Positions 1 to 45,814 of a DNA stretch of 45,814 bases are shown here, piece after piece. Location: the IMG/VR virus record IMGVR_UViG_3300022562_000301, positions 1 to 45,814 of that record; one strand, written 5' to 3'. Under the pieces are notes generated by a model. The model did not search any database, was not told the origin of the DNA, and saw only the letters and a list, made by a program, of their open reading frames with translations. The position numbers and the translations under genes were made by a program. Source of the DNA: a virus. Numbering within the stretch: the first letter of the stretch is position 1; every line of letters starts with the position of its first letter.

Positions 1-144
1 GTTCGTGGTTTGTTCCTTTAGTATCATTTAACACTCCTTTCTACTAGTACACATTCATCGTCGGTTTCTTTGATTTCCCAGCGACCTACTACCCTTCCCC
101 ACTGTTTACTAAATAAACCGGGTACAAGGATATAGGTGTGTGCT
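1..144. repeat. Terminal direct repeat: 1-144 is identical to 45671-45814, so the contig closes on itself (unique length 45,670 bp)
   Basis: Read directly: both copies run gttcgtggtttgttcc...ggtgtgtgct. The repeat cuts through coding sequence. The stop of 24..287 overlaps the ATG of the ORF 45458..45697 as ATGA at 24-27. Confidence 0.95.
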
Positions 145-287
145 ACTAGTTCTCCTCTCCAACCGAGATTGAAGTAGTCACTACACTTAGTAAATGACTT
201 CTTCATTGCAGGAATATCGTGAAATATTCCTAGGGGAATTGATACACGGTCCAGGTCCAGGTTTCCTACATACCTTACAATGATCAT
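24..287 (-). CDS. hypothetical early protein (87 aa)
   Basis: ORF in a co-oriented, tightly packed leftward array. ATGA start/stop coupling to the next gene across the circular junction. Confidence 0.65.
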   Translation of the reverse strand: MIIVRYVGNLDLDRVSIPLGIFHDIPAMKKSFTKCSDYFNLGWRGELVAHTYILVPGLFSKQWGRVVGRWEIKETDDECVLVERSVK

Positions 288-288
288 T

Positions 289-474
289 TCATTTCACCTT
301 AATAGGAGCTATGCTTTCGGTGGCATCCCAATAGCCACGCTCTTCTTTGGTTAAGTATAGCTCATAAAGAACACTAGTGTTAGTGAAATTTATGGCTATT
401 GGTGGATTGTCCGGTGCAGAGTTGATTGTACGGATTGTACCATTGGCGTACACAATTCCAACAATGTTCTTCAC
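289..474 (-). CDS. hypothetical early protein (61 aa)
   Basis: GTG start preceded by AAGGAG (minus strand ...TTTTAAGGAGTAACCACTGTG). Its stop abuts the start of 24..287. Confidence 0.6.
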   Translation of the reverse strand: MKNIVGIVYANGTIRTINSAPDNPPIAINFTNTSVLYELYLTKEERGYWDATESIAPIKVK

Positions 475-497
475 AGTGGTTACTCCTTAAAAGTACC

Positions 498-529
498 AGT
501 AGAAAAAAGCCCGCCTTAACAGAGGTTAC
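498..529. repeat. Intergenic repeat, copy A (AGTAGAAAAAAGCCCGCCTTAACAGAGGTTAC)
   Basis: Near-identical to 779-809 (AGTAGAAAAAGCCCGCCTTAATACAGGTTAC). Both lie immediately downstream of a leftward gene's stop. Confidence 0.8.
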
Positions 530-738
530 GAATCGAATTCGGGGTCGATGTAGCAAAAGCCGCGACAGTTGTCCATGGCCTGCACATACTTTCCAAAAGA
601 CTTGGGCCTTGTGTTGGCAAAGTATGCAATGTAGTCGTGAAACACTAGATAGCATAGGTCTGCTAAATCAAGTGTACCTTCTTCAAAGTATGGTCCCCAT
701 ACTCGAAAAGATTTGTCAATCACACCTTCCATAAACAT
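526..738 (-). CDS. hypothetical early protein (70 aa)
   Basis: ORF co-oriented with its neighbours. Competing ORFs 380..655(-) and 426..734(+) overlap it and look spurious. Confidence 0.55.
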   Translation of the reverse strand: MFMEGVIDKSFRVWGPYFEEGTLDLADLCYLVFHDYIAYFANTRPKSFGKYVQAMDNCRGFCYIDPEFDS

Positions 739-754
739 AGTGTTCTCGCTTTCT

Positions 755-795
755 GGCGGGCCTTTTTCTACTAGTACTAGTAGAAAAAGCCCGCC
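755..795. terminator. 41-nt near-perfect palindrome/hairpin (GGCGGGCCTTTTTCTACTAGTACTAGTAGAAAAAGCCCGCC); its right arm starts intergenic repeat copy B (779-809)
   Basis: Arms are complementary apart from one extra C. Centre is CTACTAGTACTAGTAG. Lies between genes 891..1298 and 526..738. No clean U-tract follows it on the minus strand. Confidence 0.55.
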
Positions 796-853
796 TTAAT
801 ACAGGTTACTTCTCGACAAAGGCCAAACGATAGCCCATAGTTTTCTCTTTAAA

Positions 854-880
854 TTAACTCAATAGAAAAGGGTAGGGCAG
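854..880. repeat. Degenerate copy of the GGGTAGG-hairpin repeat family (TTAACTCAATAGAAAAGGGTAGGGCAG)
   Basis: Aligns with 1337-1363 (TTAACTCAATAAAGATAGGGTAGGCAG). Lies just downstream of the stop of 891..1298. Confidence 0.55.
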
Positions 881-890
881 GGTAAGAGGT

Positions 891-1298
891 TTATTCAGTG
901 GCCATTAAGGCGAGATTCCACAACCACTTTTGAAGCATTTTGCAGAAGTGTGTACTTCCACTCACCTGTGTTAGGTGTCCCCAATTATACAGAAGTTTCT
1001 GAGCTTTTTCCTTGTGGGAAGCGTCTCGAACTATCTGTACATGGGCATAAGTACCAGTTCTCTTTTCATAAACAGCAGATGTAATGCTGTCCATGTATGA
1101 GATTTCAGATTTTACTAGGCGAAAATCCAAAGCCTCAAGAAAACTGGTAAGGCCAGGACTATCTTCAACAAAGAAATCCCAATCGTTGCACAGTTTGGGA
1201 CGATTTCTGAATAACATGCTCCCTGTAAGATAGAAGCAGAATTCAGAATTCCTGAGAGTTTCTAGCAAGTTAAACTGGACACCGTGTCCCCTTAACAT
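891..1298 (-). CDS. minimal nucleotidyltransferase-fold protein (Pol-beta superfamily-like), 135 aa
   Basis: LTGS-MLFRNRPKLCN-DWDFFV fits the hG[GS]-x9-13-DhDh signature of Pol-beta-type NTases. Strong RBS: AAGGAGATAGCC then ATG. Confidence 0.45.
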   Translation of the reverse strand: MLRGHGVQFNLLETLRNSEFCFYLTGSMLFRNRPKLCNDWDFFVEDSPGLTSFLEALDFRLVKSEISYMDSITSAVYEKRTGTYAHVQIVRDASHKEKAQKLLYNWGHLTQVSGSTHFCKMLQKWLWNLALMATE

Positions 1299-1316
1299 GG
1301 CTATCTCCTTCTTAGC

Positions 1317-1359
1317 CCTACCCCTCTTTATTGAGTTAACTCAATAAAGATAGGGTAGG
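1317..1359. promoter_or_regulatory. Long hairpin: CCTACCC-ct-[24-nt perfect palindrome CTTTATTGAGTTAACTCAATAAAG]-ata-GGGTAGG
   Basis: Read directly. Sits between the stop of 1403..1864 and the RBS of 891..1298. Confidence 0.7.
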
Positions 1360-1380
1360 CAGAACGGGTGGCTTGCGGGC
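1350..1380 (+). repeat. 31-nt repeat, left copy (ATAGGGTAGGCAGAACGGGTGGCTTGCGGGC)
   Basis: 28/31 identical to the reverse complement of 1890-1920. The two copies form an inverted pair flanking CDS 1403..1864. Confidence 0.85.
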
Positions 1381-1383
1381 GGA

Positions 1384-1408
1384 AACTAGTCACACGTTGT
1401 GACTAGTT
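1384..1408. terminator. 11-bp stem hairpin overlapping the stop codon of 1403..1864 (AACTAGTCACA-cgt-TGTGACTAGTT)
   Basis: Perfect 11-bp arms read directly. No U-tract follows, so terminator function is uncertain. Confidence 0.4.
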
Positions 1409-1864
1409 AAGAAACTGCTTGGCGACACTTGACGGGTCTCGGTCTTTGACGATCGGAGCAAACGTCTTGAGCATCTTTCCAGTGCTTGTGGTCTTGCCAG
1501 CGATAGCATTCCACAAATCCCAAGCATTTGCTGTCGTGAATGCACCAAACAAGGCTTCTACCTTAGTCTTGGGGAAATTGACCCCCTTGTCGATGGTAGC
1601 CTTGCCGGTCTCGAACTGATTTTGCCAGTCGACTGCCAGTTTGGCAGCATAGCTGGCGAAAGTCAAGTTCGGCTCGGACTTGAGCTTTTTCTCAAATTCC
1701 GCATGAAGCGTACGCATGATGCGTCCGTGAGGCGTCAAGTTTTCCTTGGCCCAACGAAGCACCATGATGAGCACAGTGAGAACGTCGGTTTGACGTTCCA
1801 TTTGCTCAAGGGGGACTTGCGTATCTTCGGTGGTAGCTTCAACAACTGTAGTGTCTGTGGACAT
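1403..1864 (-). CDS. hypothetical protein (153 aa) in a GC-richer island, flanked by 31-nt inverted repeats
   Basis: I place the start at ATG 1864, preceded by GGGAGAAAG. The ORF-track GTG at 1945 would translate through the repeat and hairpin. By hand count, 1441-1500 is 31/60 G+C. Confidence 0.6.
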   Translation of the reverse strand: MSTDTTVVEATTEDTQVPLEQMERQTDVLTVLIMVLRWAKENLTPHGRIMRTLHAEFEKKLKSEPNLTFASYAAKLAVDWQNQFETGKATIDKGVNFPKTKVEALFGAFTTANAWDLWNAIAGKTTSTGKMLKTFAPIVKDRDPSSVAKQFLN

Positions 1865-1889
1865 TACTTTCTCCCGTAAAAGAGAACAT

Positions 1890-1920
1890 GCCCACAAGCC
1901 ACTTGTTCTGCCTACCCTAT
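1890..1920 (-). repeat. 31-nt repeat, right (inverted) copy; its end forms the hairpin CCTACCC-TATCC-GGGTAGG (1911-1929)
   Basis: The reverse complement reads ATAGGGTAGGCAGAACAAGTGGCTTGTGGGC. Confidence 0.85.
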
Positions 1921-1945
1921 CCGGGTAGGCAACACGGCGACCCAC

Positions 1946-2575
1946 GAAGGTATCCCACCATCATAATTCAGTTAAACCCACAATGGATCGTGCTCGAATC
2001 AACGTCACACTAGCACCATGCACCTATTAGATTACACCATGCTACGTTGAGCCGTACCCATTAGGAATTTAACCAAACTAGGTGTTAAATCCCTACACCG
2101 ATAGGATCGGCGTGTTGCCCGTGACTCGTTCCTAGGGGGTCCGCGATTCACCCTACGGGCTGTGCCCGCGGAATCCTTGCGGACCATGTGTCCCACCGAA
2201 TATACTAGCTACAGTATACCCGTACGGACGGCACAGTCAGCGATACTCCCGTTTCTATTCAGTTTTCGGAGCCGTCAATTCCAGACGGCTCGTAATTCCC
2301 AACAATTCGCGTTCCTTCCGCGATGGTTGAAACCAGTCTTTACCCGTAAGACGTTTTCGCTTTGCTGCACGCCTACAGGGTCGCACGGGTCGCTCCGTCG
2401 GGATGTCACAATCCTGGCGTAGAGTTCGCCAGTATCGGGCACCCCGTCGATGCCGCCCTTGCGGCATCCGCATTGTTGCCATAATGCGATAAACTCCAGC
2501 CTCGCCCCGCCGCGAGGAAGCGTCCTGCCGCGAGTCGCGGCGGACAGGGAACATATAGCAGTTAGCGTACCAAAC
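1946..2575. ncRNA. GC-rich, hairpin-dense non-coding block: candidate large structured RNA, or an origin/terminus element; family and strand unknown
   Basis: The only ORFs are Arg-rich and mutually overlapping on both strands. Perfect stems seen: 2138-2144/2179-2185 enclosing 2156-2168, 2269-2276/2284-2291, 2449-2456/2461-2468, and 2507-2515/2535-2543. By hand count, 2401-2520 is 74/120 G+C. Confidence 0.35.
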
Positions 2576-2632
2576 ATAGTCCGATAATATCGCCATTTAT
2601 CGGTTGATAATCGACGATATTATCGGACTATG
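2575..2632. promoter_or_regulatory. Perfect 18-bp inverted repeat (CATAGTCCGATAATATCG ... CGATATTATCGGACTATG) with a 22-nt spacer
   Basis: Read directly. The spacer holds a smaller TTATC/GATAA inverted repeat. Lies at the boundary between the GC-rich block and the AT-rich control region. Confidence 0.75.
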
Positions 2633-2643
2633 CCACAATGACA
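2631..2643. promoter_or_regulatory. Operator-like palindromic site 1 (TGCCA-CAA-TGACA)
   Basis: One of three copies of GA(C)TATGyCAnnATGrCAG. Shares flanks with site 3 (GACTATGCCA...). Confidence 0.5.
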
Positions 2644-2663
2644 GTACCCCCAAAAATGAGATA

Positions 2664-2676
2664 TGTCAATATGGCA
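2664..2676. promoter_or_regulatory. Operator-like palindromic site 2 (TGTCA-ATA-TGGCA)
   Basis: Same motif and same orientation, 33 nt after site 1. Confidence 0.5.
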
Positions 2677-2756
2677 GTTACAATTATCTATTCCCTATAA
2701 ATCCCCCCACTTAACATACCTATTATCTCTATCTTACCTATTTTAACATCAGACTA

Positions 2757-2769
2757 TGCCAAAATGGCA
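2757..2769. promoter_or_regulatory. Operator-like palindromic site 3 (TGCCA-AAA-TGGCA; perfect 5-bp half-sites)
   Basis: Perfect inverted half-sites. The flanking GACTATG...CAG matches site 1. Confidence 0.55.
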
Positions 2770-2814
2770 GATTTTCAGGATTTTGAAGTATAAATGTAAT
2801 AATATCGGTGTTAC

Positions 2815-2830
2815 ACGAATTGTTACGGTG
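2815..2830 (-). promoter_or_regulatory. Conserved 16-nt motif, copy 1 (plus strand ACGAATTGTTACGGTG; minus strand CACCGTAACAATTCGT)
   Basis: Same orientation and near-identical sequence at 43586-43601 and 44247-44262. Each copy lies upstream of a block of leftward genes. Confidence 0.5.
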
Positions 2831-3180
2831 AGACTTTAATTCATTGAATTAGTAATTGAAAACTAGAAAAAATGGGCAAGATTGCATATAATACCCTAGA
2901 ATACCCATATCCATGCTATCTTACCATATTTTCTGGTAGGTCTGTAAATTTATAAGCTAAATTGTAATACGCAACGGGGTCGCAGTTAAAGTTTTAATTT
3001 AAATTTGCGCACTTTGGGTAGTATGGACGGGTTTAACCAATTTAACATTCTCCGAGGCCGCCAGACGAGCACGTTAATATGGATAAATTAAAATATCTTG
3101 CCTATTTTATCGCCGAGACCGCCCACCAATTTTCAGTTATTTCTGAAATGAAAATATAAAGTTTGACTTGACCCGGCCTA

Positions 3181-3256
3181 TGGGACTCCTGAAATGGCGG
3201 CGGGTAGATATACCCGCGTAAAGGCAAATTGTAATAATTATATTGTAGGAGTCCCA
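3181..3256 (+). promoter_or_regulatory. Leader stem-loop: TGGGACTCCT (3181-3190) pairs with AGGAGTCCCA (3247-3256), enclosing hairpin GCGGGTA-GATA-TACCCGC (3200-3217)
   Basis: 10-bp perfect complementarity that covers the AGGAG and the first base of ATG 3256. A possible TTGACC(3168-3173)-16 nt-TGAAAT(3190-3195) promoter lies just upstream. Confidence 0.45.
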
Positions 3257-3552
3257 TGATGTGGACCTTTTTAACATTTAAAATCTGTATGATGCCCTTT
3301 GCTATGGGCTGGACAAAAGTATATCCAGCAGGTACAGATTATACTAATTATTGCAAAACCCAGTGTATTTATGAATTCCGGGAAATTGCAATATTAACAG
3401 ATAAACACGGCAACGTAGGTGGTAGTTTAACTAATTTTCAGATAGTACAAAATAGTGCGAGGAGATGTATAGATGCCACTGAAACCCAAGGGAAAGGGGA
3501 AATCCAAGAAAGTTATTTCGGAGAATATAAAGACCGAAATGCGACACGGTAA
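3256..3552 (+). CDS. doubtful ORF (98 aa)
   Basis: Has AGGAG 4 nt upstream. However, it overlaps the better-supported small gene 3473..3613 by 80 nt in another frame, and it has no recognisable features. Confidence 0.25.
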   Translation: MMWTFLTFKICMMPFAMGWTKVYPAGTDYTNYCKTQCIYEFREIAILTDKHGNVGGSLTNFQIVQNSARRCIDATETQGKGEIQESYFGEYKDRNATR

Positions 3553-3613
3553 AAGTAAAAAGCAAGCAGTAGCCATAGCATTGAACTCCGCGAAGCGGAA
3601 AAAAGGTAAATAG
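3473..3613 (+). CDS. small, highly basic protein (46 aa: MPLKPKGKGKSKKVISENIKTEMRHGKSKKQAVAIALNSAKRKKGK); not in the ORF track
   Basis: GAGGAG lies 8 nt upstream of the ATG. The 'GKSKKQAVAIAL' core resembles, from memory, a small protein family common in phages. Ends 6 nt before the next gene. Confidence 0.6.
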   Translation: MPLKPKGKGKSKKVISENIKTEMRHGKSKKQAVAIALNSAKRKKGK

Positions 3614-4585: not shown

Positions 4586-4835
4586 TAATAATACTAAATT
4601 AGCAACCGATTATCTTCCATATATCCCTACTGAAGATATATTCAGAGAACTAGAAAAACGTTATGATAATTATGTATTTGTATTTAATAGGCCAGGACGA
4701 ACTTCGTCCTTTAAAGAAGTAGATGTTCATCTCTATGGCTATACCATTGAACTATTAGGTCTTGCTGACTATGCAAGATTATTCATTGGACGTATTGCAA
4801 AAGGTATAGTCAATGAGCAATTTAGAGATGAATAA
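4575..4835 (+). CDS. hypothetical protein (86 aa)
   Basis: Short overlaps with both neighbours, typical of a packed operon. Confidence 0.6.
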   Translation: MDSNNNTKLATDYLPYIPTEDIFRELEKRYDNYVFVFNRPGRTSSFKEVDVHLYGYTIELLGLADYARLFIGRIAKGIVNEQFRDE

Positions 4836-6381
4836 TCTAGATAATGCCGTTATAAACGGCAATTTTGCTGAAATAATTAGTGAATTAAAACGACGACAAG
4901 AACATGAAATAAATAAATATACACCTGGAGATACACCTGAGTGGAATCAAAAAAGTTTTCACGAATCGACGGCAAGGTATAGGTTAGTATTTGGAGGTAA
5001 TCAGAGTGGGAAATCTTATAGTAATGCTTATGAAGTGGCTTGCTGGCTTACAGGGAATCACCCTTATCGAATGGTTCCTAAACCTCCTGTCACAGTCTGG
5101 GTAATTTCAGCAGAATATTCTACCATCCACCAAGGAGTATATCGTCACCTAGTAAATTTAATTCCTTACTGGGAAATAGAAAAGTTCGGACCAACTGTAC
5201 CGCAGCAGCCAATTAGTTCCTATATCCGATTAAAAAACGGATCAGAAGTATATTTTAAAACCGCTCTCGGCGACAGCCGAAAGAAGTTTCAGGCTGCTGC
5301 GGTACACTTAACTAGTATCGACGAAGAAGTAGACTATAGTATTTGGGAAGAACTAGAAGTTCGATCCTTAGCCACTGGTGGTGAATATATTATCAGTGCA
5401 ACTCTAGTCGAATCCTATGAGTGGATAGTTAAGCTAGAAGAACTAGCTGATAAAAAGAAAGAGGGTTACTTCATAGTAAGACTTAATACTGAAGATAACC
5501 CTCACTTGGATAAGAAACGAGTAGCAGAGTTAAAAGAAAAATTTGACGAAGAAACATTAGAAGTACGATTTAAGGGTAAAAGTCGCCGTAGTCGTGGACT
5601 GATATACAATACCTGGGACAAGAATATTCATGAAATAGATCCTTTTCCTATACCTTATAAGTGGCCTAAATGGTGTGCAATAGATCCTGGTATTCAGACT
5701 TTTGCGGCACTATGGGTAACAGTAGACCCTGATGATTTTATATATGCCTATCGTGAATTATATTATCATAATGTACCATTATGGGAAGTTGCAGCAGCCC
5801 TTAGAACAAGTGAAGGATTTAAATTAAATAAACAATTAACTGAAAAATTTGGACATTACGTATGGGAAAATCCTGATAGTAATGTAGTAGAACATATGGT
5901 ATTAAGAATAATTGACGATAAACGGGGAGCAAGACTTATTACAGGGGACGAGGGAGTACTTGACCAACTGTATTCTCTTTATGGTATTTCTTGTGTGCCT
6001 GCTGAAAAAGCTGTCAGACCAGGAATAGAACTCTGTAGAAAATGGCTAGAACAAATACCCCATCCTAGAACAGGAATATTAACTCCTAAATTTAGGGTAT
6101 TTAAAAGTTGTGAAAACTTCATAGATGAAAGGGCAAAATACAGAATAAGGACTAAAGCTACTAAAAAGGAATCCAATGATCCTATAGATCAACCAATTAA
6201 AAAGAAAGATCACTTGATGGACTGTTGGCGATATATCGCCATGACTAACCCCAGGTATGAGGATAGGAAACTTATTACGGCATTTGCCAAAGATTACGTG
6301 AGTTTCTATGACAGGAACAGGCGACGTAGAAGGAAAGATACCGAAGAATTCATTGATGAATACCTCGGTACAGAAATATAA
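4813..6381 (+). CDS. terL: terminase large subunit
   Basis: Walker A GGNQSGKS and Walker B-like LTSIDEE. C-terminal nuclease-type acidic motifs (AIDPG, DHLMDCWRY). Size 522 aa. Confidence 0.9.
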   Translation: MSNLEMNNLDNAVINGNFAEIISELKRRQEHEINKYTPGDTPEWNQKSFHESTARYRLVFGGNQSGKSYSNAYEVACWLTGNHPYRMVPKPPVTVWVISAEYSTIHQGVYRHLVNLIPYWEIEKFGPTVPQQPISSYIRLKNGSEVYFKTALGDSRKKFQAAAVHLTSIDEEVDYSIWEELEVRSLATGGEYIISATLVESYEWIVKLEELADKKKEGYFIVRLNTEDNPHLDKKRVAELKEKFDEETLEVRFKGKSRRSRGLIYNTWDKNIHEIDPFPIPYKWPKWCAIDPGIQTFAALWVTVDPDDFIYAYRELYYHNVPLWEVAAALRTSEGFKLNKQLTEKFGHYVWENPDSNVVEHMVLRIIDDKRGARLITGDEGVLDQLYSLYGISCVPAEKAVRPGIELCRKWLEQIPHPRTGILTPKFRVFKSCENFIDERAKYRIRTKATKKESNDPIDQPIKKKDHLMDCWRYIAMTNPRYEDRKLITAFAKDYVSFYDRNRRRRRKDTEEFIDEYLGTEI

Positions 6382-6661
6382 AAAAGATAGAATAAATGAT
6401 AAACCTCTTGAAATTAGTACACCTGCATGTATATCACATATTTTAGTAAATATAATGAATAAAATGGTTTTAATTGATAATAATACTCTTGATAAATTTG
6501 TTGATTATTGTATTACTTATCCTGGATGTAATATAGGGGATGCCTATAAAACAGCAACAGGTAAAACCTATTACAATTTATCTGCTTCTGAGCAGTTACC
6601 TTGGCAGATAGTGTTTGATTTGGCTACCAGGATTGGGACATGGACAAAAAAGTTAAATTAA
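6308..6661 (+). CDS. hypothetical protein; start uncertain (ATG at 6308, 6356, 6455 or 6464)
   Basis: The ORF overlaps the terL 3' end by 74 nt if the longest form is used. No clear RBS at any candidate start. Confidence 0.45.
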   Translation: MTGTGDVEGKIPKNSLMNTSVQKYKKDRINDKPLEISTPACISHILVNIMNKMVLIDNNTLDKFVDYCITYPGCNIGDAYKTATGKTYYNLSASEQLPWQIVFDLATRIGTWTKKLN

Positions 6662-7907: not shown

Positions 7908-8191
7908 TGGAAATTCCTGAGAGTATTAGAGAAAAATTACAAGGGAGACAGAGTACTGAACATAGCTCCCTTAGTAAGGAAGATTTATTAATTCAATTTA
8001 TTAATATGCAACAGCAATACTATGCTGATATGAGAGACATGGCACACCAACATGCTAAACTTGCAACAGACCTAATAAATATATTCCATGGAACAGTACC
8101 CACTAATAACACTGGTCCAGTTAGTGAGGAAGTTCCTATAGATTTCGATATAGGTGAAGATTTAAGAGGTGGAGAATTAGGTGCCGACTAA
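7907..8191 (+). CDS. hypothetical protein (94 aa)
   Basis: TAATG start/stop coupling to the previous gene. Confidence 0.6.
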   Translation: MEIPESIREKLQGRQSTEHSSLSKEDLLIQFINMQQQYYADMRDMAHQHAKLATDLINIFHGTVPTNNTGPVSEEVPIDFDIGEDLRGGELGAD

Positions 8192-10262
8192 TCTGTATGA
8201 AGTGCGGAAAGGTAAAAAAGGCTCTGTTGAAGACTTCATTAAAAGTAAATATGAAGATCACAAACAGAGAATGACAGACCTCTACCGCGAGTGGGCACTG
8301 ACCCTCGCGTGGACGAGGGGTCATCAGAACGTAAACTTTAACCCAACTACCAAACAATGGACTAAAGTAAAACGTAATCCTTGGCAAACACGACTTATTA
8401 GCAATTTACTATTACCGTTAGTTCGTAGTAAAGTTGCTAGACTATATCTTCCTAGGCCCGTATGGGACGTTATTCCAGCTACACCTGACCAGGAAGATAT
8501 TGATATATCCCATACTGCTAGAAAAATTCTAGAAGATGTGTGGGTACGACATAATTTAACAACTAAACTTATTAGAAAATCATTCTGGCAAGCAATAACT
8601 GGCAATGCTTTTATGAAGGTTGGGTGGGATTCGAAAGCCGGAAAGGAGGTCCAGATTGATCCTCGGTCGGTGGAAGATCAGGCTCTTGACCAATTCATGG
8701 CTATCAATGGCCTAGAAGTCCCACCCAACCTAATCACTGTAAATGAAGGTGATTTATTTATTGAACCAGTATCACCTTTTAATATGGTCTTTGATCATAT
8801 GTCTAATGTGTTCGAAGATAGTGATTGGTGTTTTGAATTAAACCTTAGATCAAAAGACTGGATTATTGATGAATTTGGAACTAAGTGGAAGGATAAAATT
8901 TCTGAGACAAATGAAGCGGAAGCATTAATCCATCCTTATATACATTTAGATGATGATGTTAAACAAGTAAATCGTAGAGGCGTATTAACTTTTGAAATGT
9001 ACATTAAAAAGTGCAGACAGTTTAAGAAGGGTTTATATGTTTTTATGGCTGACGATCAGTTATTAGTTACACCTAAAGATTTGCCATTTGAACATGGAAA
9101 GAAACCCTATGTCCATCATATAGAAATATATGACCCTGTAACCCCTTGGGGTACTAGTTGTGCTATTCAAGTAAGACCTAATCAGGCACGTTACAATAGG
9201 GTACAATCAGTAATTACTGACCATATTAATTTAACTAGTAAAGTTCAATGGCTTATTCCTAGAAGTGCTCATATAACACAAATTACTAATCGACCGGGTG
9301 AGAATATTTTCTTTAGTGGTGCTATACCTCCAACACAGACTCAACCTAGAAATATACCTATGTATGTTGAACAAACATTAGAACGAACTCGTAGAGACAT
9401 GCAAGATACTTCTAGTTTTCATAATGTATCACAAGGTCAAGGAGATACTGGAGTACGATCAGGTCGTGCAGTATTAGCCTTACAGGATGCTGACGATTCT
9501 GTAGACTCGCCAATTTTTGGTTGGGAAGATAAATGTCTCCGTGACCTTGGAGTACTTGTTCTTGAAACTTTAAATCAATATGTAACAGAAGAAAAAGTTA
9601 TTAGAGTTAGAGGAGAATTTAATGAGTTACAAACATTAAAATACACTGGAGCAATGCTTAAAGGAAATAGTCCAGGCGATTATTTTGATGTACGTATTAA
9701 GACTTATGGTCGTCATATACTTTCAAGAGCAGGACGTGAGGCACAAGTAATTAACTTTGTGCAACTCGGTCTCCTTAATCCGCAAGATCCTAACGATAGA
9801 GATATTATTCTTGAAATGTTAGGATCAGGAGATGTTGAGCGTATATTTGACCAGGAAGAAGCTGATCGTACAAGACAGTGGGACGAAATTCAGGCGATGG
9901 AGCAGGGTCAACCTGTAGAAGTCTTGGCTGGAGAAAACCATAAAGAACATCTTAAGATGATTAAGAGATGGTTAGCTTCAAGTAGACGAGACAAGGCATC
10001 GCCAGAAGCTATTAAATTAATTCAGTTGCACTACATTATGCATATGCAAATGCAGGCAGCTGAATTAGTTCAACAGCAAGCAATAGCTCAAGGAGCCGTA
10101 CAAGGAGATTATGACACTACTACGATTAACCAAAGTATTACTGGACCCTCAGGAAACCGGAACGGGCAGCGTCCCGCCGGCCCCGCCGGTGGCCCCAGTA
10201 GATTCCAAGGACTCGCCGGAGAGCAAGCCGGAAGTCTCACCGGAGTCAACAGAACCCAGTAA
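8181..10262 (+). CDS. portal protein
   Basis: 693 aa, between terminase and scaffold/capsid. Size and position are typical of podovirus head-tail connectors. GTG start. Confidence 0.75.
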   Translation: MPTNLYEVRKGKKGSVEDFIKSKYEDHKQRMTDLYREWALTLAWTRGHQNVNFNPTTKQWTKVKRNPWQTRLISNLLLPLVRSKVARLYLPRPVWDVIPATPDQEDIDISHTARKILEDVWVRHNLTTKLIRKSFWQAITGNAFMKVGWDSKAGKEVQIDPRSVEDQALDQFMAINGLEVPPNLITVNEGDLFIEPVSPFNMVFDHMSNVFEDSDWCFELNLRSKDWIIDEFGTKWKDKISETNEAEALIHPYIHLDDDVKQVNRRGVLTFEMYIKKCRQFKKGLYVFMADDQLLVTPKDLPFEHGKKPYVHHIEIYDPVTPWGTSCAIQVRPNQARYNRVQSVITDHINLTSKVQWLIPRSAHITQITNRPGENIFFSGAIPPTQTQPRNIPMYVEQTLERTRRDMQDTSSFHNVSQGQGDTGVRSGRAVLALQDADDSVDSPIFGWEDKCLRDLGVLVLETLNQYVTEEKVIRVRGEFNELQTLKYTGAMLKGNSPGDYFDVRIKTYGRHILSRAGREAQVINFVQLGLLNPQDPNDRDIILEMLGSGDVERIFDQEEADRTRQWDEIQAMEQGQPVEVLAGENHKEHLKMIKRWLASSRRDKASPEAIKLIQLHYIMHMQMQAAELVQQQAIAQGAVQGDYDTTTINQSITGPSGNRNGQRPAGPAGGPSRFQGLAGEQAGSLTGVNRTQ

Positions 10263-41450: not shown

Positions 41451-41462
41451 TACTATTACTAT

Positions 41463-41547
41463 TACCCCTACCTGGACTCGAACCAGGACACCCTTAATGG
41501 GCGAGGGATTTTAAGTCCCTTGCGTCTGCCTATTCCGCCATAGGGGC
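41463..41547 (-). tRNA. tRNA-Leu (anticodon UAA), type II with long variable arm; no encoded CCA
   Basis: The reverse complement folds by hand as GCCCCTA-TG-GCG-(11-nt D loop)-CGC-A-AGGGA-CTTAAAA-TCCCT-(16-nt variable arm)-CCTGG-TTCGAGT-CCAGG-TAGGGGT-A. Confidence 0.85.
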
Positions 41548-41564
41548 AGGCCCGTAGGGAAAAA

Positions 41565-42381: not shown

Positions 42382-42509
42382 AGGTAATAGGTAGCAAATT
42401 GCCTGTATTAGGTATAGGTAATAGGTAGGGATATTACTCCCTACCTATTACCCTTGAGCGGTTACTGCTGCTGCTATTCACCGCCAAATCCATTTTTGTT
42501 ACCTATTAC
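42382..42509. repeat. Cluster of GGTAATAGGTAG-type repeats: direct copies at 42382-42393 and 42416-42430, inverted copies at 42437-42451 and 42499-42509; the middle pair forms a 15-bp perfect palindrome
   Basis: Read directly: GGTAATAGGTAGGGA-tattac-TCCCTACCTATTACC. Lies immediately downstream of the ParB-like gene. Confidence 0.8.
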
Positions 42510-42518
42510 CCTGCTTCG

Positions 42519-43463
42519 TTAATTGAGGCTAATCCCTGCTTCCTGGAGACGGCGTTCCAGCATCTTAATGTGGTCTTGTACCTCTGCTGGAATCTTTTCC
42601 TTCTCTTTCTTTTCCTTCTCTTTCTTCTTCTCTTCTTCCTTAATTCTCAGGGATTCCTCATCAATTTGAAGAGCTAGCTTGCAGAATTCCATTTGACCAG
42701 CAACAAAGAGGTAATCTTCATTGTCGGTATCCATGGATTCCATTTGGTTAGTTAAATGGGCAAGCTGATCTTCGAACCATGCCTTCTTCCTAAGGACAAG
42801 GTTCAATACCTTATCGGGGTTTTCACCTCTCGCTGCGGCACGAATCTTCTTAATTTCCGTCTTTGCGTAATTAATAAATTCGTTGGTTGACTTCTCCTGT
42901 GCTTCCTTAAGATGGTTGTTCTGATGCTCTTGAGGAATGCGTGACAGTGCAATAGCACTAGTAGGAGTAATCTTGCCTTTAGACAGTAATTCTGTAGCTT
43001 CCTTAGTAAGGCGTTCAAGTCCCAAAAGATTAGAGAGCTCAGCTTGCGTCATATTAAACGCAATAGCAACGTCAGCTTGAGTCATGTTAGGATTATGCAT
43101 CATATAAGTCTTAACATGGTCGAGCTCTTGAATCTTTGTTTGCTTAACACGATTCCTATTGAGAATCATTTGCAGACGACGACAGTCATCTTCACTATGA
43201 TCCATAATACGGCAAGGAATAGTGTCTTTGCGTAACTCTTTGGAAATTGACCAGCGTTGACAGCCATCAATTCCAATAAACTTTCCTGGTACTGGCTGAC
43301 CAGTGGCATCCCTCTTAGGCCGGACGAGAATAGGTAACTGTACTCCTTCGAGTTCAATGGAATACTTTAACCTATCATATTCTTGAGTCCCAACCTGTGC
43401 TTCACGAATCTTTACCTCATCAAAATCAATATCTGATAAGGCAATGTCTTGAGCTTCAATCAC
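42519..43463 (-). CDS. parB: ParB-like (ParB/Srx N-terminal domain) DNA-binding or nuclease protein
   Basis: LPILVRP......FIGIDGCQRW matches the ParB N-terminal box. Central HTH-like region (MTQADVAIAFNMTQAELSNLL). K/E-rich coiled-coil tail. GTG start. Confidence 0.7.
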   Translation of the reverse strand: MIEAQDIALSDIDFDEVKIREAQVGTQEYDRLKYSIELEGVQLPILVRPKRDATGQPVPGKFIGIDGCQRWSISKELRKDTIPCRIMDHSEDDCRRLQMILNRNRVKQTKIQELDHVKTYMMHNPNMTQADVAIAFNMTQAELSNLLGLERLTKEATELLSKGKITPTSAIALSRIPQEHQNNHLKEAQEKSTNEFINYAKTEIKKIRAAARGENPDKVLNLVLRKKAWFEDQLAHLTNQMESMDTDNEDYLFVAGQMEFCKLALQIDEESLRIKEEEKKKEKEKKEKEKIPAEVQDHIKMLERRLQEAGISLN

Positions 43464-45461: not shown

Positions 45462-45697
45462 TTAATACCCGCCCTTCTTCTTAGTTCTTTCTTTACTTCC
45501 CTTGCGATAGGTCCCCGCCATGTATTGGCATTGCTAAGGAAATAGAGAATGATGGTCTTTTCGTCGTCCAAGTAATATTTACCATCTACTAGTTCCTTTA
45601 ATGCCTTGATGTAGGGGACTGCACCATAAAAGGGATTTTGCCAGTCCCTACTGATAAGGCGTCCTAGTTCGTTCGTGGTTTGTTCCTTTAGTATCAT
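45458..45697 (-). CDS. hypothetical early protein (79 aa); its start lies inside the terminal repeat
   Basis: Packed array. Its start codon corresponds to positions 25-27 of the window. Confidence 0.6.
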   Translation of the reverse strand: MILKEQTTNELGRLISRDWQNPFYGAVPYIKALKELVDGKYYLDDEKTIILYFLSNANTWRGPIAREVKKELRRRAGIK

Positions 45698-45814
45698 TTA
45701 ACACTCCTTTCTACTAGTACACATTCATCGTCGGTTTCTTTGATTTCCCAGCGACCTACTACCCTTCCCCACTGTTTACTAAATAAACCGGGTACAAGGA
45801 TATAGGTGTGTGCT

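What the first reader, a model, noticed from the sequence alone, without database searches (positions are those of the whole stretch)
1946..2575. About 630-nt GC-rich, hairpin-dense, ORF-free block at the divergence point: candidate large structured RNA (or origin/terminus element)
Genes here normally abut or overlap, yet 1865-3472 has no convincing gene. Inside that desert, about 1946-2575 differs sharply in composition. By hand count, 2401-2520 is 74/120 G+C, against 22/60 for 2701-2760. Its only ORFs (2162..2422+, 2255..2596-, 2275..2577-) overlap each other and are Arg-rich, which is what GC-rich non-coding DNA produces. The block holds many perfect local helices. GGTCCGC/GCGGACC (2138-2144/2179-2185) encloses CGGGC-TGT-GCCCG. 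The others are GAGCCGTC/GACGGCTC (2269-2291), GATGCCGC-CCTT-GCGGCATC (2449-2468) and CCGCCGCGA/TCGCGGCGG (2507-2543). The last helix competes with an alternative pairing, CCTGCCGCG/CGCGG..CAGG (2524-2549), because CCGCGAG occurs twice. That gives a possible switch-like element. I cannot assign the block to any RNA family I know by eye: no tmRNA, RNase P or tRNA-like hallmarks were seen. A large phage-borne structured RNA would be of real interest. Alternatives are a replication origin, the physical genome terminus or pac site, or a decayed acquired gene.
Basis: partly seen in the sequence, partly recalled or inferred. Interest (0 to 1): 0.75.

Follow-up and report, generated by a model that had tools for sequence, protein, structure and literature searches.

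The report
Early-operon leader with hidden small gene
The GC-rich "gene desert" is not one large RNA: it is the first stretch of this phage's early transcript, holding an overlooked gene for a small, very basic protein, RNA hairpins, and one of a set of long stems that enclose each early gene in this phage family.

Summary
The composition and the helices are real. The block is 54.6% G+C against 37.2% for the genome, and every listed helix sits at the stated coordinates. The block is not ORF-free. The gene is most likely 2255-2482(-): 75 aa, pI 11.6, function unknown.

No Rfam family matches. No relative has a similar block at the DNA level, and a covariance model of the best-folding part finds only itself. 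A single 630-nt structured RNA is therefore not supported.

On the minus (early mRNA) strand the layout is:
- a promoter-like site;
- a 58-nt palindromic operator (2575-2632), whose half-site recurs in relatives;
- a 92-nt leader with two GC hairpins;
- the small basic gene;
- a spacer;
- a 198-nt ORF-less domain (1925-2122) that folds far better in mRNA sense.

Directly downstream, 24-32-nt inverted repeats enclose ("bracket") each early gene. Seven related phages carry 12 such pairs. Their sequences differ but stay complementary, and mismatches are 24 G·U against 4 A·C in mRNA sense (p = 9e-5). This points to long-range RNA stems, probably for processing or stability.

The block itself is of modest interest. 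The bracketing stems are the novel part.

The parts
2641..2669 (-). Candidate early-left promoter: TTGACA (2669-2664), 17-nt spacer, TACTGT (2646-2641). The predicted transcript start is near 2634.
   Evidence: Read from the sequence. The -10 hexamer is too weak for the consensus scan. The site overlaps the conserved box TGTCATTGTGGCA. Inferred, not shown.
2575..2632 (.). Palindrome with 27-nt arms that carries two inverted TCCGATAAT half-sites. It is probably an operator at +1 to +58 of the early transcript, and would also form a 5'-terminal RNA hairpin.
   Evidence: I1. TCCGATAA recurs in the same intergenic region of L001, L009, L010 (9 copies), L014, L016, L093, L094 and L095 (blastn hits).
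2483..2574 (-). 5' leader of the small gene. It has GC hairpins at 2522-2545 and 2500-2517 (with the competing 9-bp pairing 2507-2515/2535-2543) and GGAG at 2494-2497, 11 nt before the AUG.
   Evidence: fold of 2483-2640(-), z -6.5, palindrome included; D7; sequence.
2255..2482 (-). Gene for a 75-aa basic protein of unknown function (MATMRMPQGRHRRGARYWRTLRQ...; 16 Arg, pI 11.6). The hairpin 2449-2468 lies within codons 5-11.
   Evidence: phmmer against 1.84 billion representatives: P0106 (71 aa, 57% identity, E 5e-18) and P0107 (85 aa, 58%, E 3e-16). The alignment has 32 invariant columns. tblastn gives 3e-24 and 3e-22. Shorter Arg-rich peptides sit at the same position in L007, L009 and L094, with synonymous codon changes between L007 and L009. 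Profile-profile P = 0.005.
2123..2254 (-). Spacer after the small gene. It holds the hairpin GGTCCGC...GCGGACC (2138-2185) and a promoter-like site, CTGACT-16-TATACT (2240-2213).
   Evidence: The fold z is only -1.65, which is not exceptional.
1925..2122 (-). ORF-less structured domain. A 16-nt closing stem (2104-2119 / 1928-1943) encloses a long imperfect hairpin rich in G·U pairs.
   Evidence: I7.: -81.9 kcal/mol, z -5.4, 0 of 200 shuffles in mRNA sense; -51.7, z -2.9 in antisense. No ORF longer than 15 codons lies wholly inside. No homologue was found.
1890..1921 (-). 5' arm of the long-range stem that brackets the 153-aa gene. It overlaps the 3' half of the local hairpin GCCUACCC-GGAUA-GGGUAGGC (1910-1930).
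   Evidence: 32 nt, 29 Watson-Crick + 1 G·U + 2 A·C. Duplex energy -69.4 against -39.9 ± 4.6 for shuffles.
1403..1864 (-). Bracketed early gene of 153 aa. It has no homologue apart from its own identical copies, is GC3-rich (0.60), and corresponds in position to the ~150-aa bracketed genes of relatives.
   Evidence: Homology to the relatives' proteins is not significant (hhalign P = 0.26).
1349..1380 (-). 3' arm of the stem that brackets the 153-aa gene.
849..1344 (-). Second bracketed cassette: arms 1315-1344 / 849-878 around the 135-aa gene 891-1298.
   Evidence: 30 nt, 25 Watson-Crick + 4 G·U + 1 A·C.
492..778 (-). Third bracketed cassette: arms 755-778 / 492-515 around the 70-aa gene 526-738.
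   Evidence: 24 nt, 22 Watson-Crick + 2 G·U.
2626..2770 (.). Two copies of the conserved box GACTATGCCAnAATGnCAG (2626-2644 and 2752-2770) in the AT-rich divergent control region.
   Evidence: 2 copies against 0.12 expected. TGCCAnAATGnCA also occurs in L009, L094 and L095.

Best explanation
The block is the promoter-proximal part of the phage's leftward early operon, read on the minus strand. It is not a stand-alone large RNA.

Transcription most likely starts near 2634, from a TTGACA-N17-TACTGT site. It runs through a palindromic operator (2632-2575) and then a 92-nt GC-rich leader with two hairpins. Next comes a previously overlooked gene (2482-2255) for a 75-aa, strongly basic protein of unknown function. 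That gene is followed by a 390-nt intercistronic stretch, whose last 198 nt (2122-1925) form an ORF-less stem-closed RNA domain.

From there on, each early gene is enclosed by a 24-32-bp long-range RNA stem between its 5' and 3' untranslated flanks. These stems are proposed to act as double-stranded processing and stability elements. RNase III-type cleavage would release each cistron with paired, protected ends. The 198-nt domain would be an ORF-less member of the same series.

The high G+C comes from three sources: CGN arginine codons, GC-rich stems, and a family-wide rise in G+C (including GC3) at the head of the early operon.

Shown:
- the gene is real;
- the helices exist;
- the bracketing complementarity is conserved while sequences diverge;
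- wobble pairs are in excess in mRNA sense.

Inferred:
- the promoter and transcript start;
- RNase III cleavage;
- the role of the basic protein.
For: The gene:
- The 113-aa ORF has homologues of 71 and 85 aa, with E 5e-18 and 3e-16, over residues 35-109.
- Related Arg-rich peptides occupy the same position in L007, L009 and L094, with synonymous codon differences.

Not a known or conserved RNA:
- There are no Rfam hits.
- There is no DNA similarity to any relative's block.
- The covariance model finds only itself.

Context:
- Relatives found through the large terminase subunit (TerL) share the layout. All have a 1-1.4-kb gap between the divergent operons. The gap consists of an AT-rich part with conserved boxes and a GC-elevated part next to the first leftward genes.

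Structure:
- Domain 1925-2122 has z -5.4 in mRNA sense and -2.9 in antisense.

Bracketing stems:
- There are 12 pairs in 7 phages, each placed 19-39 nt before the start codon and 6-22 nt after the stop codon. Together they have 305 Watson-Crick, 24 G·U, 4 A·C and 5 other pairs in mRNA sense, binomial p = 9e-5.
- No inverted repeat of comparable quality occurs in the other 36.7 kb of the window.

Composition:
- GC3 of the bracketed ~150-aa gene exceeds that of TerL and portal in all 7 phages.
- 15 of the 16 Arg codons in the small gene are CGN, whereas AGA dominates in core genes.
Against: - There are no expression data. The promoter, transcript start and any cleavage are inferred.
- The -10 hexamer is weak.
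- The small gene itself is not bracketed by an inverted repeat.
- The 16-nt closing stem of the 198-nt domain is near the noise level of the repeat finder. About 2% of 200-nt windows genome-wide reach a similar z.
- That domain has no homologue, so it has no covariation of its own.
- The closest relative (TerL 75% identical; L004/L006) shows no bracketing repeats in the part that assembled.
- The link between the 75-aa family and the shorter peptides of L007, L009 and L094 is only suggestive (hhalign P = 0.005; the HMM was not significant).
- Gene conversion between DNA arms could also keep inverted repeats complementary, although it would not explain the G·U bias.
Confidence: 0.6

Rival explanations
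1. One large structured non-coding RNA of about 630-700 nt, in the class of GOLLD or ROOL, is transcribed from the minus strand, and the ORFs inside it are incidental.
For: - Folding exceeds shuffles: z about -5 for 1946-2572 and -9 for 1900-2640(-).
- G exceeds C on the minus strand.
- No long ORF lies in 1865-2254.
Against: - An intact ORF conserved at 57-58% identity occupies 2255-2482.
- No Rfam match exists up to E = 10.
- Relatives have no alignable counterpart.
- The z-score is equal on both strands for the block as a whole, and a coding control window matches it.
- Sub-region 2120-2260 does not fold exceptionally.
Confidence: 0.04
2. The block is a DNA-level element: a replication origin, a pac site or the physical genome terminus.
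For: - The cumulative GC skew has its minimum near 2800.
- The adjacent AT-rich region carries conserved repeated boxes and a large palindrome.
- Contigs of several relatives end inside or next to this intergenic region: L004/L006, L005, L093 and L094.
- Two relatives carry GC-rich tandem repeats at this spot.
Against: - The skew switch coincides with the switch in transcription direction, so it is not specific to an origin.
- The conserved DNA motifs lie in 2575-3250, not in the GC block.
- The block has no tandem repeats or iterons.
- The window assembled as a circle, with its 144-nt overlap elsewhere.
- Contig breaks can equally reflect strain-level hypervariability or unassemblable repeats.
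- The G·U excess argues that the neighbouring repeats act as RNA.
Confidence: 0.1
3. The block is only a horizontally acquired accessory island. It would carry the small basic gene and the 153-aa gene, which has no detectable relatives, plus their own untranslated DNA. The hairpins would be incidental or simple terminators, and the inverted repeats would be scars or recombination sites of cassette insertion into pre-existing hairpins.
For: - G+C and GC3 differ from core genes: GC3 is 0.51 and 0.60 against 0.17-0.30.
- The closest relative lacks everything in window 1-2600.
- The region is hypervariable across the family.
- The 153-aa protein has no homologue among 5.8 billion proteins.
Against: - GC3 elevation of the bracketed gene is seen in all seven phages, which is unlike independent recent imports.
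- The bracketing architecture is kept, with different arm sequences, around homologous ~150-aa genes (L007/L009 blastp 2e-10).
- Mismatches are biased 24:4 towards G·U in mRNA sense. A pure DNA scar would not produce that bias.
Confidence: 0.2

Closest known systems
RNase III processing sites of the phage T7 early polycistronic mRNA (own knowledge)
   Same: Double-stranded RNA elements lie between the cistrons of a phage early operon. They are expected to cut the transcript into single-gene mRNAs with protected ends.
   Different: T7 sites are local hairpins between genes. Here the two arms lie on either side of a whole gene, 240-510 nt apart, so the stem closes a loop that contains the ORF. 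Cleavage has not been shown here.
Processing stems that flank 16S and 23S rRNA in bacterial rRNA operons (own knowledge)
   Same: A long-range duplex forms between sequences upstream and downstream of a functional unit. Its sequence varies but its complementarity is kept, and it is an RNase III substrate.
   Different: Those stems enclose rRNAs. Here they enclose protein-coding ORFs (and one ORF-less 160-nt insert) in a phage early operon.
5'-UTR/3'-UTR pairing of icaR mRNA in Staphylococcus aureus (PMC3868564, found)
   Same: The two untranslated ends of one bacterial mRNA base-pair and create a double-stranded RNase III substrate.
   Different: In icaR the 3' UTR pairs with the Shine-Dalgarno region and represses translation. 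Here the 5' arm ends 19-39 nt upstream of the start codon, and in the window's 153-aa gene (1403-1864), the one checked, it leaves the ribosome-binding site free. The pattern also recurs serially on successive genes.
Lambda pL-nutL-N leader (own knowledge)
   Same: The first gene after the early promoter encodes a small arginine-rich protein. It is preceded by a structured leader.
   Different: There is no sequence or Pfam relation to N. No boxA/boxB site was identified, and antitermination is untested. This is an analogy of position only.
Large phage-associated RNAs GOLLD and ROOL, HEARO, and group I/II introns
   Same: Long, GC-richer, hairpin-dense non-coding stretches in phage genomes.
   Different: No covariance-model match, even at E = 10. 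A third of the block is coding, and no conserved structure was found in relatives.
PeSL (promoter-early stem-loop) cassettes in hyperplastic regions of T4-type phages (own knowledge, not checked in the library)
   Same: Repeated short structured elements flank small, fast-changing early genes in a hypervariable region.
   Different: PeSLs are direct repeats that carry a promoter and a local stem-loop. Here the flanks are inverted repeats that are unique to each gene.

Membership tests
Rfam large structured RNAs (GOLLD, ROOL, HEARO, OLE, raiA, group I/II introns, RNase P, tmRNA) | A match to the family covariance model | tested here: not met
   At gathering thresholds the only hit in the window is tRNA-Leu. 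At E up to 10, 1700-3500 gives only chance miRNA-type hits on palindromes. ARAGORN finds no tmRNA.
Structured non-coding RNA (generic) | The region does not code for protein | tested here: not met
   2255-2482(-) encodes a protein with homologues at E 5e-18 and 3e-16. The remainder (1865-2254 and 2483-2574) has no supported ORF.
Structured non-coding RNA (generic) | Structure conserved in homologues, with compensatory changes | tested here: inconclusive
   No homologue of the block or of domain 1925-2122 could be found. The only other copy, L002, is 100% identical.
Protein-coding gene (small basic protein family; A3 alignment) | An open frame conserved in diverged homologues, with a protein-like substitution pattern | tested here: met
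   Three sequences are open in the same frame. 32 columns are invariant, including W, C, P, G and Y, and there are R/K, I/L/V and D/E exchanges. The homologues' DNA was not retrievable, so dN/dS was not computed.
Protein-coding gene (small basic protein family; A3 alignment) | A known domain or solved structure | tested here: not met
   Pfam and PHROGs give nothing significant. The best PDB hit has E = 0.6. The AlphaFold2 model is helical but low-confidence (pLDDT 68).
RNase III-type long-range processing stems | A duplex of at least about 20 bp between sequences that flank a functional unit, with complementarity kept while the sequence varies | tested here: met
   12 pairs of 24-33 nt occur in 7 phages with different arm sequences, 305 Watson-Crick pairs of 338 positions. 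The rest of the window has none of this quality.
RNase III-type long-range processing stems | The pairing acts at the RNA level, in the sense of the transcript | tested here: met
   24 G·U against 4 A·C mismatches in mRNA sense; one-sided binomial p = 9e-5.
RNase III-type long-range processing stems | Cleavage by RNase III at the stem | not testable with these tools
   This needs end-mapping in wild-type and rnc hosts, or in vitro cleavage.
Lambda N-type antitermination module | A protein related to N, plus a boxA/boxB nut site in the leader | tested here: not met
   There is no Pfam match. Nothing resembling boxA/boxB was noticed while reading the leader 2483-2574, but no dedicated motif search was run. 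Only the position and the arginine richness are shared.
Replication origin | Iterons or initiator boxes next to an AT-rich unwinding region, and a strand-skew switch | tested here: inconclusive
   Conserved boxes and AT-rich DNA lie at 2575-3250, not in the GC block. The skew minimum near 2800 coincides with the switch in transcription direction.
Genome terminus / pac site | Read-start pile-ups or terminal repeats at the site | not testable with these tools
   No reads are available. The window closes as a circle, with a 144-nt overlap at another place. Contigs of relatives often end here, which is ambiguous.
icaR-type 5'/3' UTR pairing | The 3' UTR pairs with the Shine-Dalgarno region | tested here: not met
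   The 5' arms end 19-39 nt before the start codon. In the window the GGGAG ribosome-binding site at about 1875-1879 lies outside the arm 1890-1921.

The most novel reading that the evidence does not exclude
In this uncultured family of ~42-47-kb phages, early genes are expressed as "looped" cistrons. Each is closed by a 24-33-bp RNA stem between its own 5' and 3' flanks. That stem competes with a local 5' hairpin that forms first during transcription.

The 198-nt domain inside the reported block (1925-2122) would be an ORF-less member of the series. It would be excised as a stable non-coding RNA.

The arginine-rich first gene product may bind the GC hairpins of its own leader.

Serial bracketing of protein-coding genes by long-range stems has, to my knowledge, not been described for phage operons.
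Probability: 0.35. Interest if true: 0.65.

Novelty: new variant of a known kind. Interest (0 to 1): 0.4.

Why it matters
For the finding as submitted, the result is corrective. An Arg-rich ORF in GC-rich DNA was written off as noise, yet it is a conserved gene. The "desert" is an ordinary, though structured, early leader.

The by-product may matter more. A whole phage family keeps long-range complementarity around each of its first early genes while letting the sequences drift, and the wobble-pair bias points to RNA. If the stems are RNase III or stability elements, they would be a natural, modular way to insulate and stabilise individual cistrons of a polycistronic transcript. That would interest phage RNA biologists and those designing synthetic operons.

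The small basic protein family is a new candidate early effector with no known relatives.

Tried and rejected
- **Rfam:** gathering thresholds and E up to 10 gave nothing relevant. ARAGORN found no tmRNA or extra tRNA.
- **DNA similarity:** blastn "distant" against the phage and plasmid collections gave no match. An exact 39-mer scan of IMG/VR gave none.
- **The 153-aa neighbour as bait:** no relatives in IMG/VR, the phage collection or the 5.8-billion-protein set. Only identical copies turned up, so there is no covariation data.
- **Stop-codon recoding:** rejected, because all six frames have mixed stop types.
- **Tandem repeats or iterons inside the block:** none.
- **HMM of the three short Arg-rich peptides against the window ORF:** not significant (E 5.7 among 5,557 fragments). 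Profile-profile comparison gave P = 0.005.
- **Scans with the small-protein alignment:** nothing in IMG/VR or in GTDB genomes. The 113-aa product is not on record for a context look-up, so the contigs of P0106 and P0107 could not be read.
- **Homology of the 153-aa protein to the relatives' ~150-aa proteins:** not significant.
- **An inverted repeat bracketing the small gene:** none.
- **Covariance model of domain 1925-2122 over 20 loci:** only self hits.
- **Structure prediction of the small protein:** pLDDT 68, too weak for a fold search.
- **Genome-wide z-score scan:** the first attempt timed out and was rerun with smaller windows.
Full report
**Setting.** The window is a complete, circularly closed phage contig: positions 1-144 equal 45671-45814, giving a 45,670-bp circle. 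The same genome occurs as a 45,690-bp Logan contig from SRR14699976. It encodes:
- a large terminase subunit, TerL (4813-6381, +), and a P22/SU10-type portal (8181-10262, +);
- on the minus strand, a family-A DNA polymerase, an SF3 primase-helicase, an SNF2 helicase, a sigma factor, a methylase and a ParB-like protein.

Genes left of about 2600 run leftward and genes right of about 3250 run rightward. The finding therefore lies at the head of the leftward, early-type operon. No cultured phage is close: TerL is at most 27% identical to any.

**Checking the observation.** All listed helices are at the stated coordinates, and the direct repeat that allows alternative pairing is present.

The block folds better than dinucleotide shuffles, with z between -5.1 and -5.8, equally on both strands. 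Eighteen coding control windows of the same length average about -1.2 and range from +1.7 to -5.4. The excess is real but at the edge of the genome's own distribution. The z of -9 for 1900-2640(-) is inflated by the 27-nt-arm palindrome at 2575-2632.

**The block is not ORF-free.** I searched the dismissed ORF 2255..2596(-) against 1.84 billion representative proteins with phmmer. Apart from itself it found P0106 (71 aa, 57% identity, E 5e-18) and P0107 (85 aa, 58%, E 3e-16). Both align to residues 35-109.
- The three-way alignment has 32 invariant columns: ARYWR, RPCRRA.KR, LTGK.W..PS.
- tblastn of the two homologues onto the window gives 3e-24 and 3e-22.
- The real gene most likely starts at the ATG at 2482 (MATMRMPQG...), with GGAG 11 nt upstream. 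It encodes 75 aa with 16 Arg and pI 11.6.
- Pfam, PHROGs and PDB sequences give no informative match. The AlphaFold2 model is helical but low-confidence.

**Relatives.** TerL homologues define a family of ~42-47-kb phages. I fetched the region from ten of them.
- Every relative with the region intact has a 1-1.4-kb gap between the divergent operons.
- The gap has two parts. One is AT-rich and carries the conserved motifs TCCGATAA(T) and TGCCAnAATGnCA. The other is GC-elevated and lies next to the first leftward genes.
- The GC parts share no detectable DNA similarity with the window's block, and hardly any with each other. The region is hypervariable.
- L007, L009 and L094 encode short Arg-rich peptides at this position (...KAR.W..L.REL...RRR..RRLRRQGK). 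Between L007 and L009 these differ by many synonymous codon changes. They align in register with the 75-aa family, but the statistics are only suggestive (hhalign P = 0.005; HMM not significant).

**No support for one large RNA.**
- Rfam 15 gives no hit in 1700-3500, even at E = 10, beyond chance miRNA-like matches to palindromes.
- The phage and plasmid collections hold nothing similar.
- The only other copy is identical.
- All six frames carry mixed stop codons, so recoding is not hiding a long gene.

**Anatomy on the minus strand.**

| Coordinates | Element | Basis |
|---|---|---|
| 2669-2664 / 2646-2641 | Promoter-like TTGACA-N17-TACTGT; predicted start near 2634 | Inferred from the sequence |
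| 2632-2575 | Palindromic operator | |
| 2574-2483 | Leader with hairpins 2522-2545 and 2500-2517 | |
| 2482-2255 | Small basic gene | |
| 2254-2123 | Spacer that does not fold exceptionally (z -1.65) | |
| 2122-1925 | ORF-less domain | |

The last domain is closed by a 16-nt stem (2104-2119 / 1928-1943). Its interior forms a long hairpin rich in G·U pairs. It folds at -81.9 kcal/mol (z -5.4, 0 of 200 shuffles) in mRNA sense, against -51.7 (z -2.9) in antisense. A covariance model of it finds nothing in 20 related loci. About 2% of 200-nt windows genome-wide reach a similar z. It is therefore a candidate RNA element, not a proven one.

**Gene-bracketing stems.** This came up while reading the flanks. 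The three genes directly downstream of the block are each enclosed by an inverted repeat:
- 1890-1921 / 1349-1380 around the 153-aa gene;
- 1315-1344 / 849-878 around the 135-aa gene;
- 755-778 / 492-515 around the 70-aa gene.

The same architecture appears in L007, L009 (twice), L010 (twice), L095, L016 and L096 (twice).
- The 5' arm lies 19-39 nt before the start codon, and the 3' arm 6-22 nt after the stop codon.
- Arm sequences differ between phages, even where the enclosed ~150-aa proteins are homologous (L007/L009, blastp 2e-10).
- Over 12 pairs there are 305 Watson-Crick pairs, 24 G·U, 4 A·C and 5 other mismatches in mRNA sense. On the opposite strand the 24:4 ratio inverts. The one-sided binomial p is 9e-5.
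- The flanks of the 153-aa gene pair at -69.4 kcal/mol, against -39.9 ± 4.6 for shuffles.
- The other 36.7 kb of the window has no inverted repeat of comparable quality at this spacing.
- The 5' arm overlaps the 3' half of a local hairpin (GCCUACCC-GGAUA-GGGUAGGC in the window), so the local and long-range pairings exclude each other.
- The small basic gene itself is not bracketed.
- The closest relative shows no such repeats in the part of its early region that assembled.

**Composition.** The GC rise is not peculiar to this phage. In all seven phages the bracketed ~150-aa gene has a GC3 that is 0.12-0.33 higher than that of TerL or portal. In the window, the small gene uses CGN for 15 of its 16 Arg codons, whereas core genes prefer AGA. 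The composition reflects arginine codons, GC stems and a family-wide property of the early-operon head. It does not require a foreign RNA gene.

**Origin or terminus.** The cumulative GC-skew minimum lies near 2800, but that coincides with the switch in gene direction. Contigs of several relatives end in or next to this region. Two relatives carry GC-rich tandem repeats there: L001 176-389 and the start of L006. In L006 a tRNA-Met follows directly. These facts fit either assembly breaks at a hypervariable or repetitive spot, or physical ends. Without reads this cannot be decided. The conserved DNA motifs lie outside the GC block.

**Conclusion.** The compositional and helix observations hold. 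The "ORF-free large structured RNA" reading does not.

The best-supported account is a structured early-operon head. It contains an overlooked gene for a small basic protein and an ORF-less stem-closed domain, followed by serial long-range RNA stems around the early genes.

The nearest known analogues are T7 early RNase III sites, rRNA processing stems and the icaR 5'/3' UTR duplex (PMC3868564). None of them shares the serial bracketing of protein-coding cistrons. Cleavage, transcript ends and the protein's role remain to be shown.

Noticed in passing
window 492-1921; L007 4634-5166; L009 4623-5541; L010 4287-5070; L095 1708-2226; L016 283-769; L096 4528-5356: Each of the first early genes is enclosed by a 24-33-nt inverted repeat whose sequence differs between phages. 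Over 12 pairs, mismatches are 24 G·U against 4 A·C in mRNA sense (p = 9e-5). This points to long-range RNA stems that loop out whole cistrons.
   Followed up: yes
window 1910-1930 (also L007 about 5160-5185 and L009 about 5535-5560): The 5' arm of the long-range stem overlaps the 3' half of a short local hairpin, so the two pairings exclude each other. This could be a co-transcriptional switch from the local hairpin to the long-range stem.
   Followed up: partly
window 2575-2632, 2626-2644 and 2752-2770; L010 5857-6400; L093 300-715; L095 2641-3010; L094 599-740; L009 6116-6214: TCCGATAA(T) and TGCCAnAATGnCA boxes recur in the divergent intergenic region across the family, with 9 copies of the first in L010. 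They are probably operator or iteron sites. The binding protein is unknown; the phage ParB-like protein is one candidate.
   Followed up: partly
window 3181-3224; L005 51-92; L001 402-435; L010 about 6449-6479: A conserved motif, GGGACTCC-N(15-20)-GTAGATATACC (variants TATATATACC), lies just upstream of the rightward packaging/structural operon. It looks like a late promoter, possibly for the phage's own sigma factor.
   Followed up: partly
L001 176-389; L006 1-100: Two relatives carry GC-rich tandem repeats at the same intergenic spot: GGCCAGC units (about 30 copies) in L001, and GTCGGG/GTCGAG units in L006. Five relatives' contigs end in or beside this region (L004/L006, L005, L093, L094).
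   Followed up: partly
L006 145-217: In the closest relative (TerL 75% identical) the first element of the early operon is a tRNA-Met(CAT). This is where the window has its GC block and genes with no detectable relatives. That relative has no similarity to window 1-2600.
   Followed up: partly
window 1-144 and 45671-45814: The two ends of the window are identical over 144 nt, so the contig is a closed circle of 45,670 bp.
   Followed up: yes
window 526-2482, and the bracketed genes of L007, L009, L010, L016, L095 and L096: Genes at the head of the early operon have a GC3 that is 0.12-0.33 above that of TerL or portal in all seven phages. The GC rise is a family trait, not a one-off import.
   Followed up: partly
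window 3473-3613 (+): A 46-aa lysine-rich ORF matches phrog_2423 (E 5e-17). It overlaps the end of the 98-aa ORF 3256-3552, which one gene caller preferred. The true first gene of the rightward operon is therefore uncertain.
   Followed up: no
L007 5556-5714; L094 about 365-495: Small Cys/Trp-rich ORFs (52 and 43 aa) lie directly upstream of the Arg-rich peptide gene in two relatives. In L007 the junction is an ATGA overlap, which suggests translational coupling.
   Followed up: no
window 42383-42641: In the coarse scan, the window 42401-42600(-), which spans the ParB-like gene's 3' end and the intergenic DNA downstream of it, has the strongest fold excess in the genome. It also holds an inverted repeat (42383-42398 / 42495-42510), and a pyrimidine-rich tandem repeat (42593-42641) follows just inside the gene.
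   Followed up: no
window 41462-41548 (-): tRNA-Leu(TAA) with a long variable arm is the only Rfam or ARAGORN hit in the genome.
   Followed up: no
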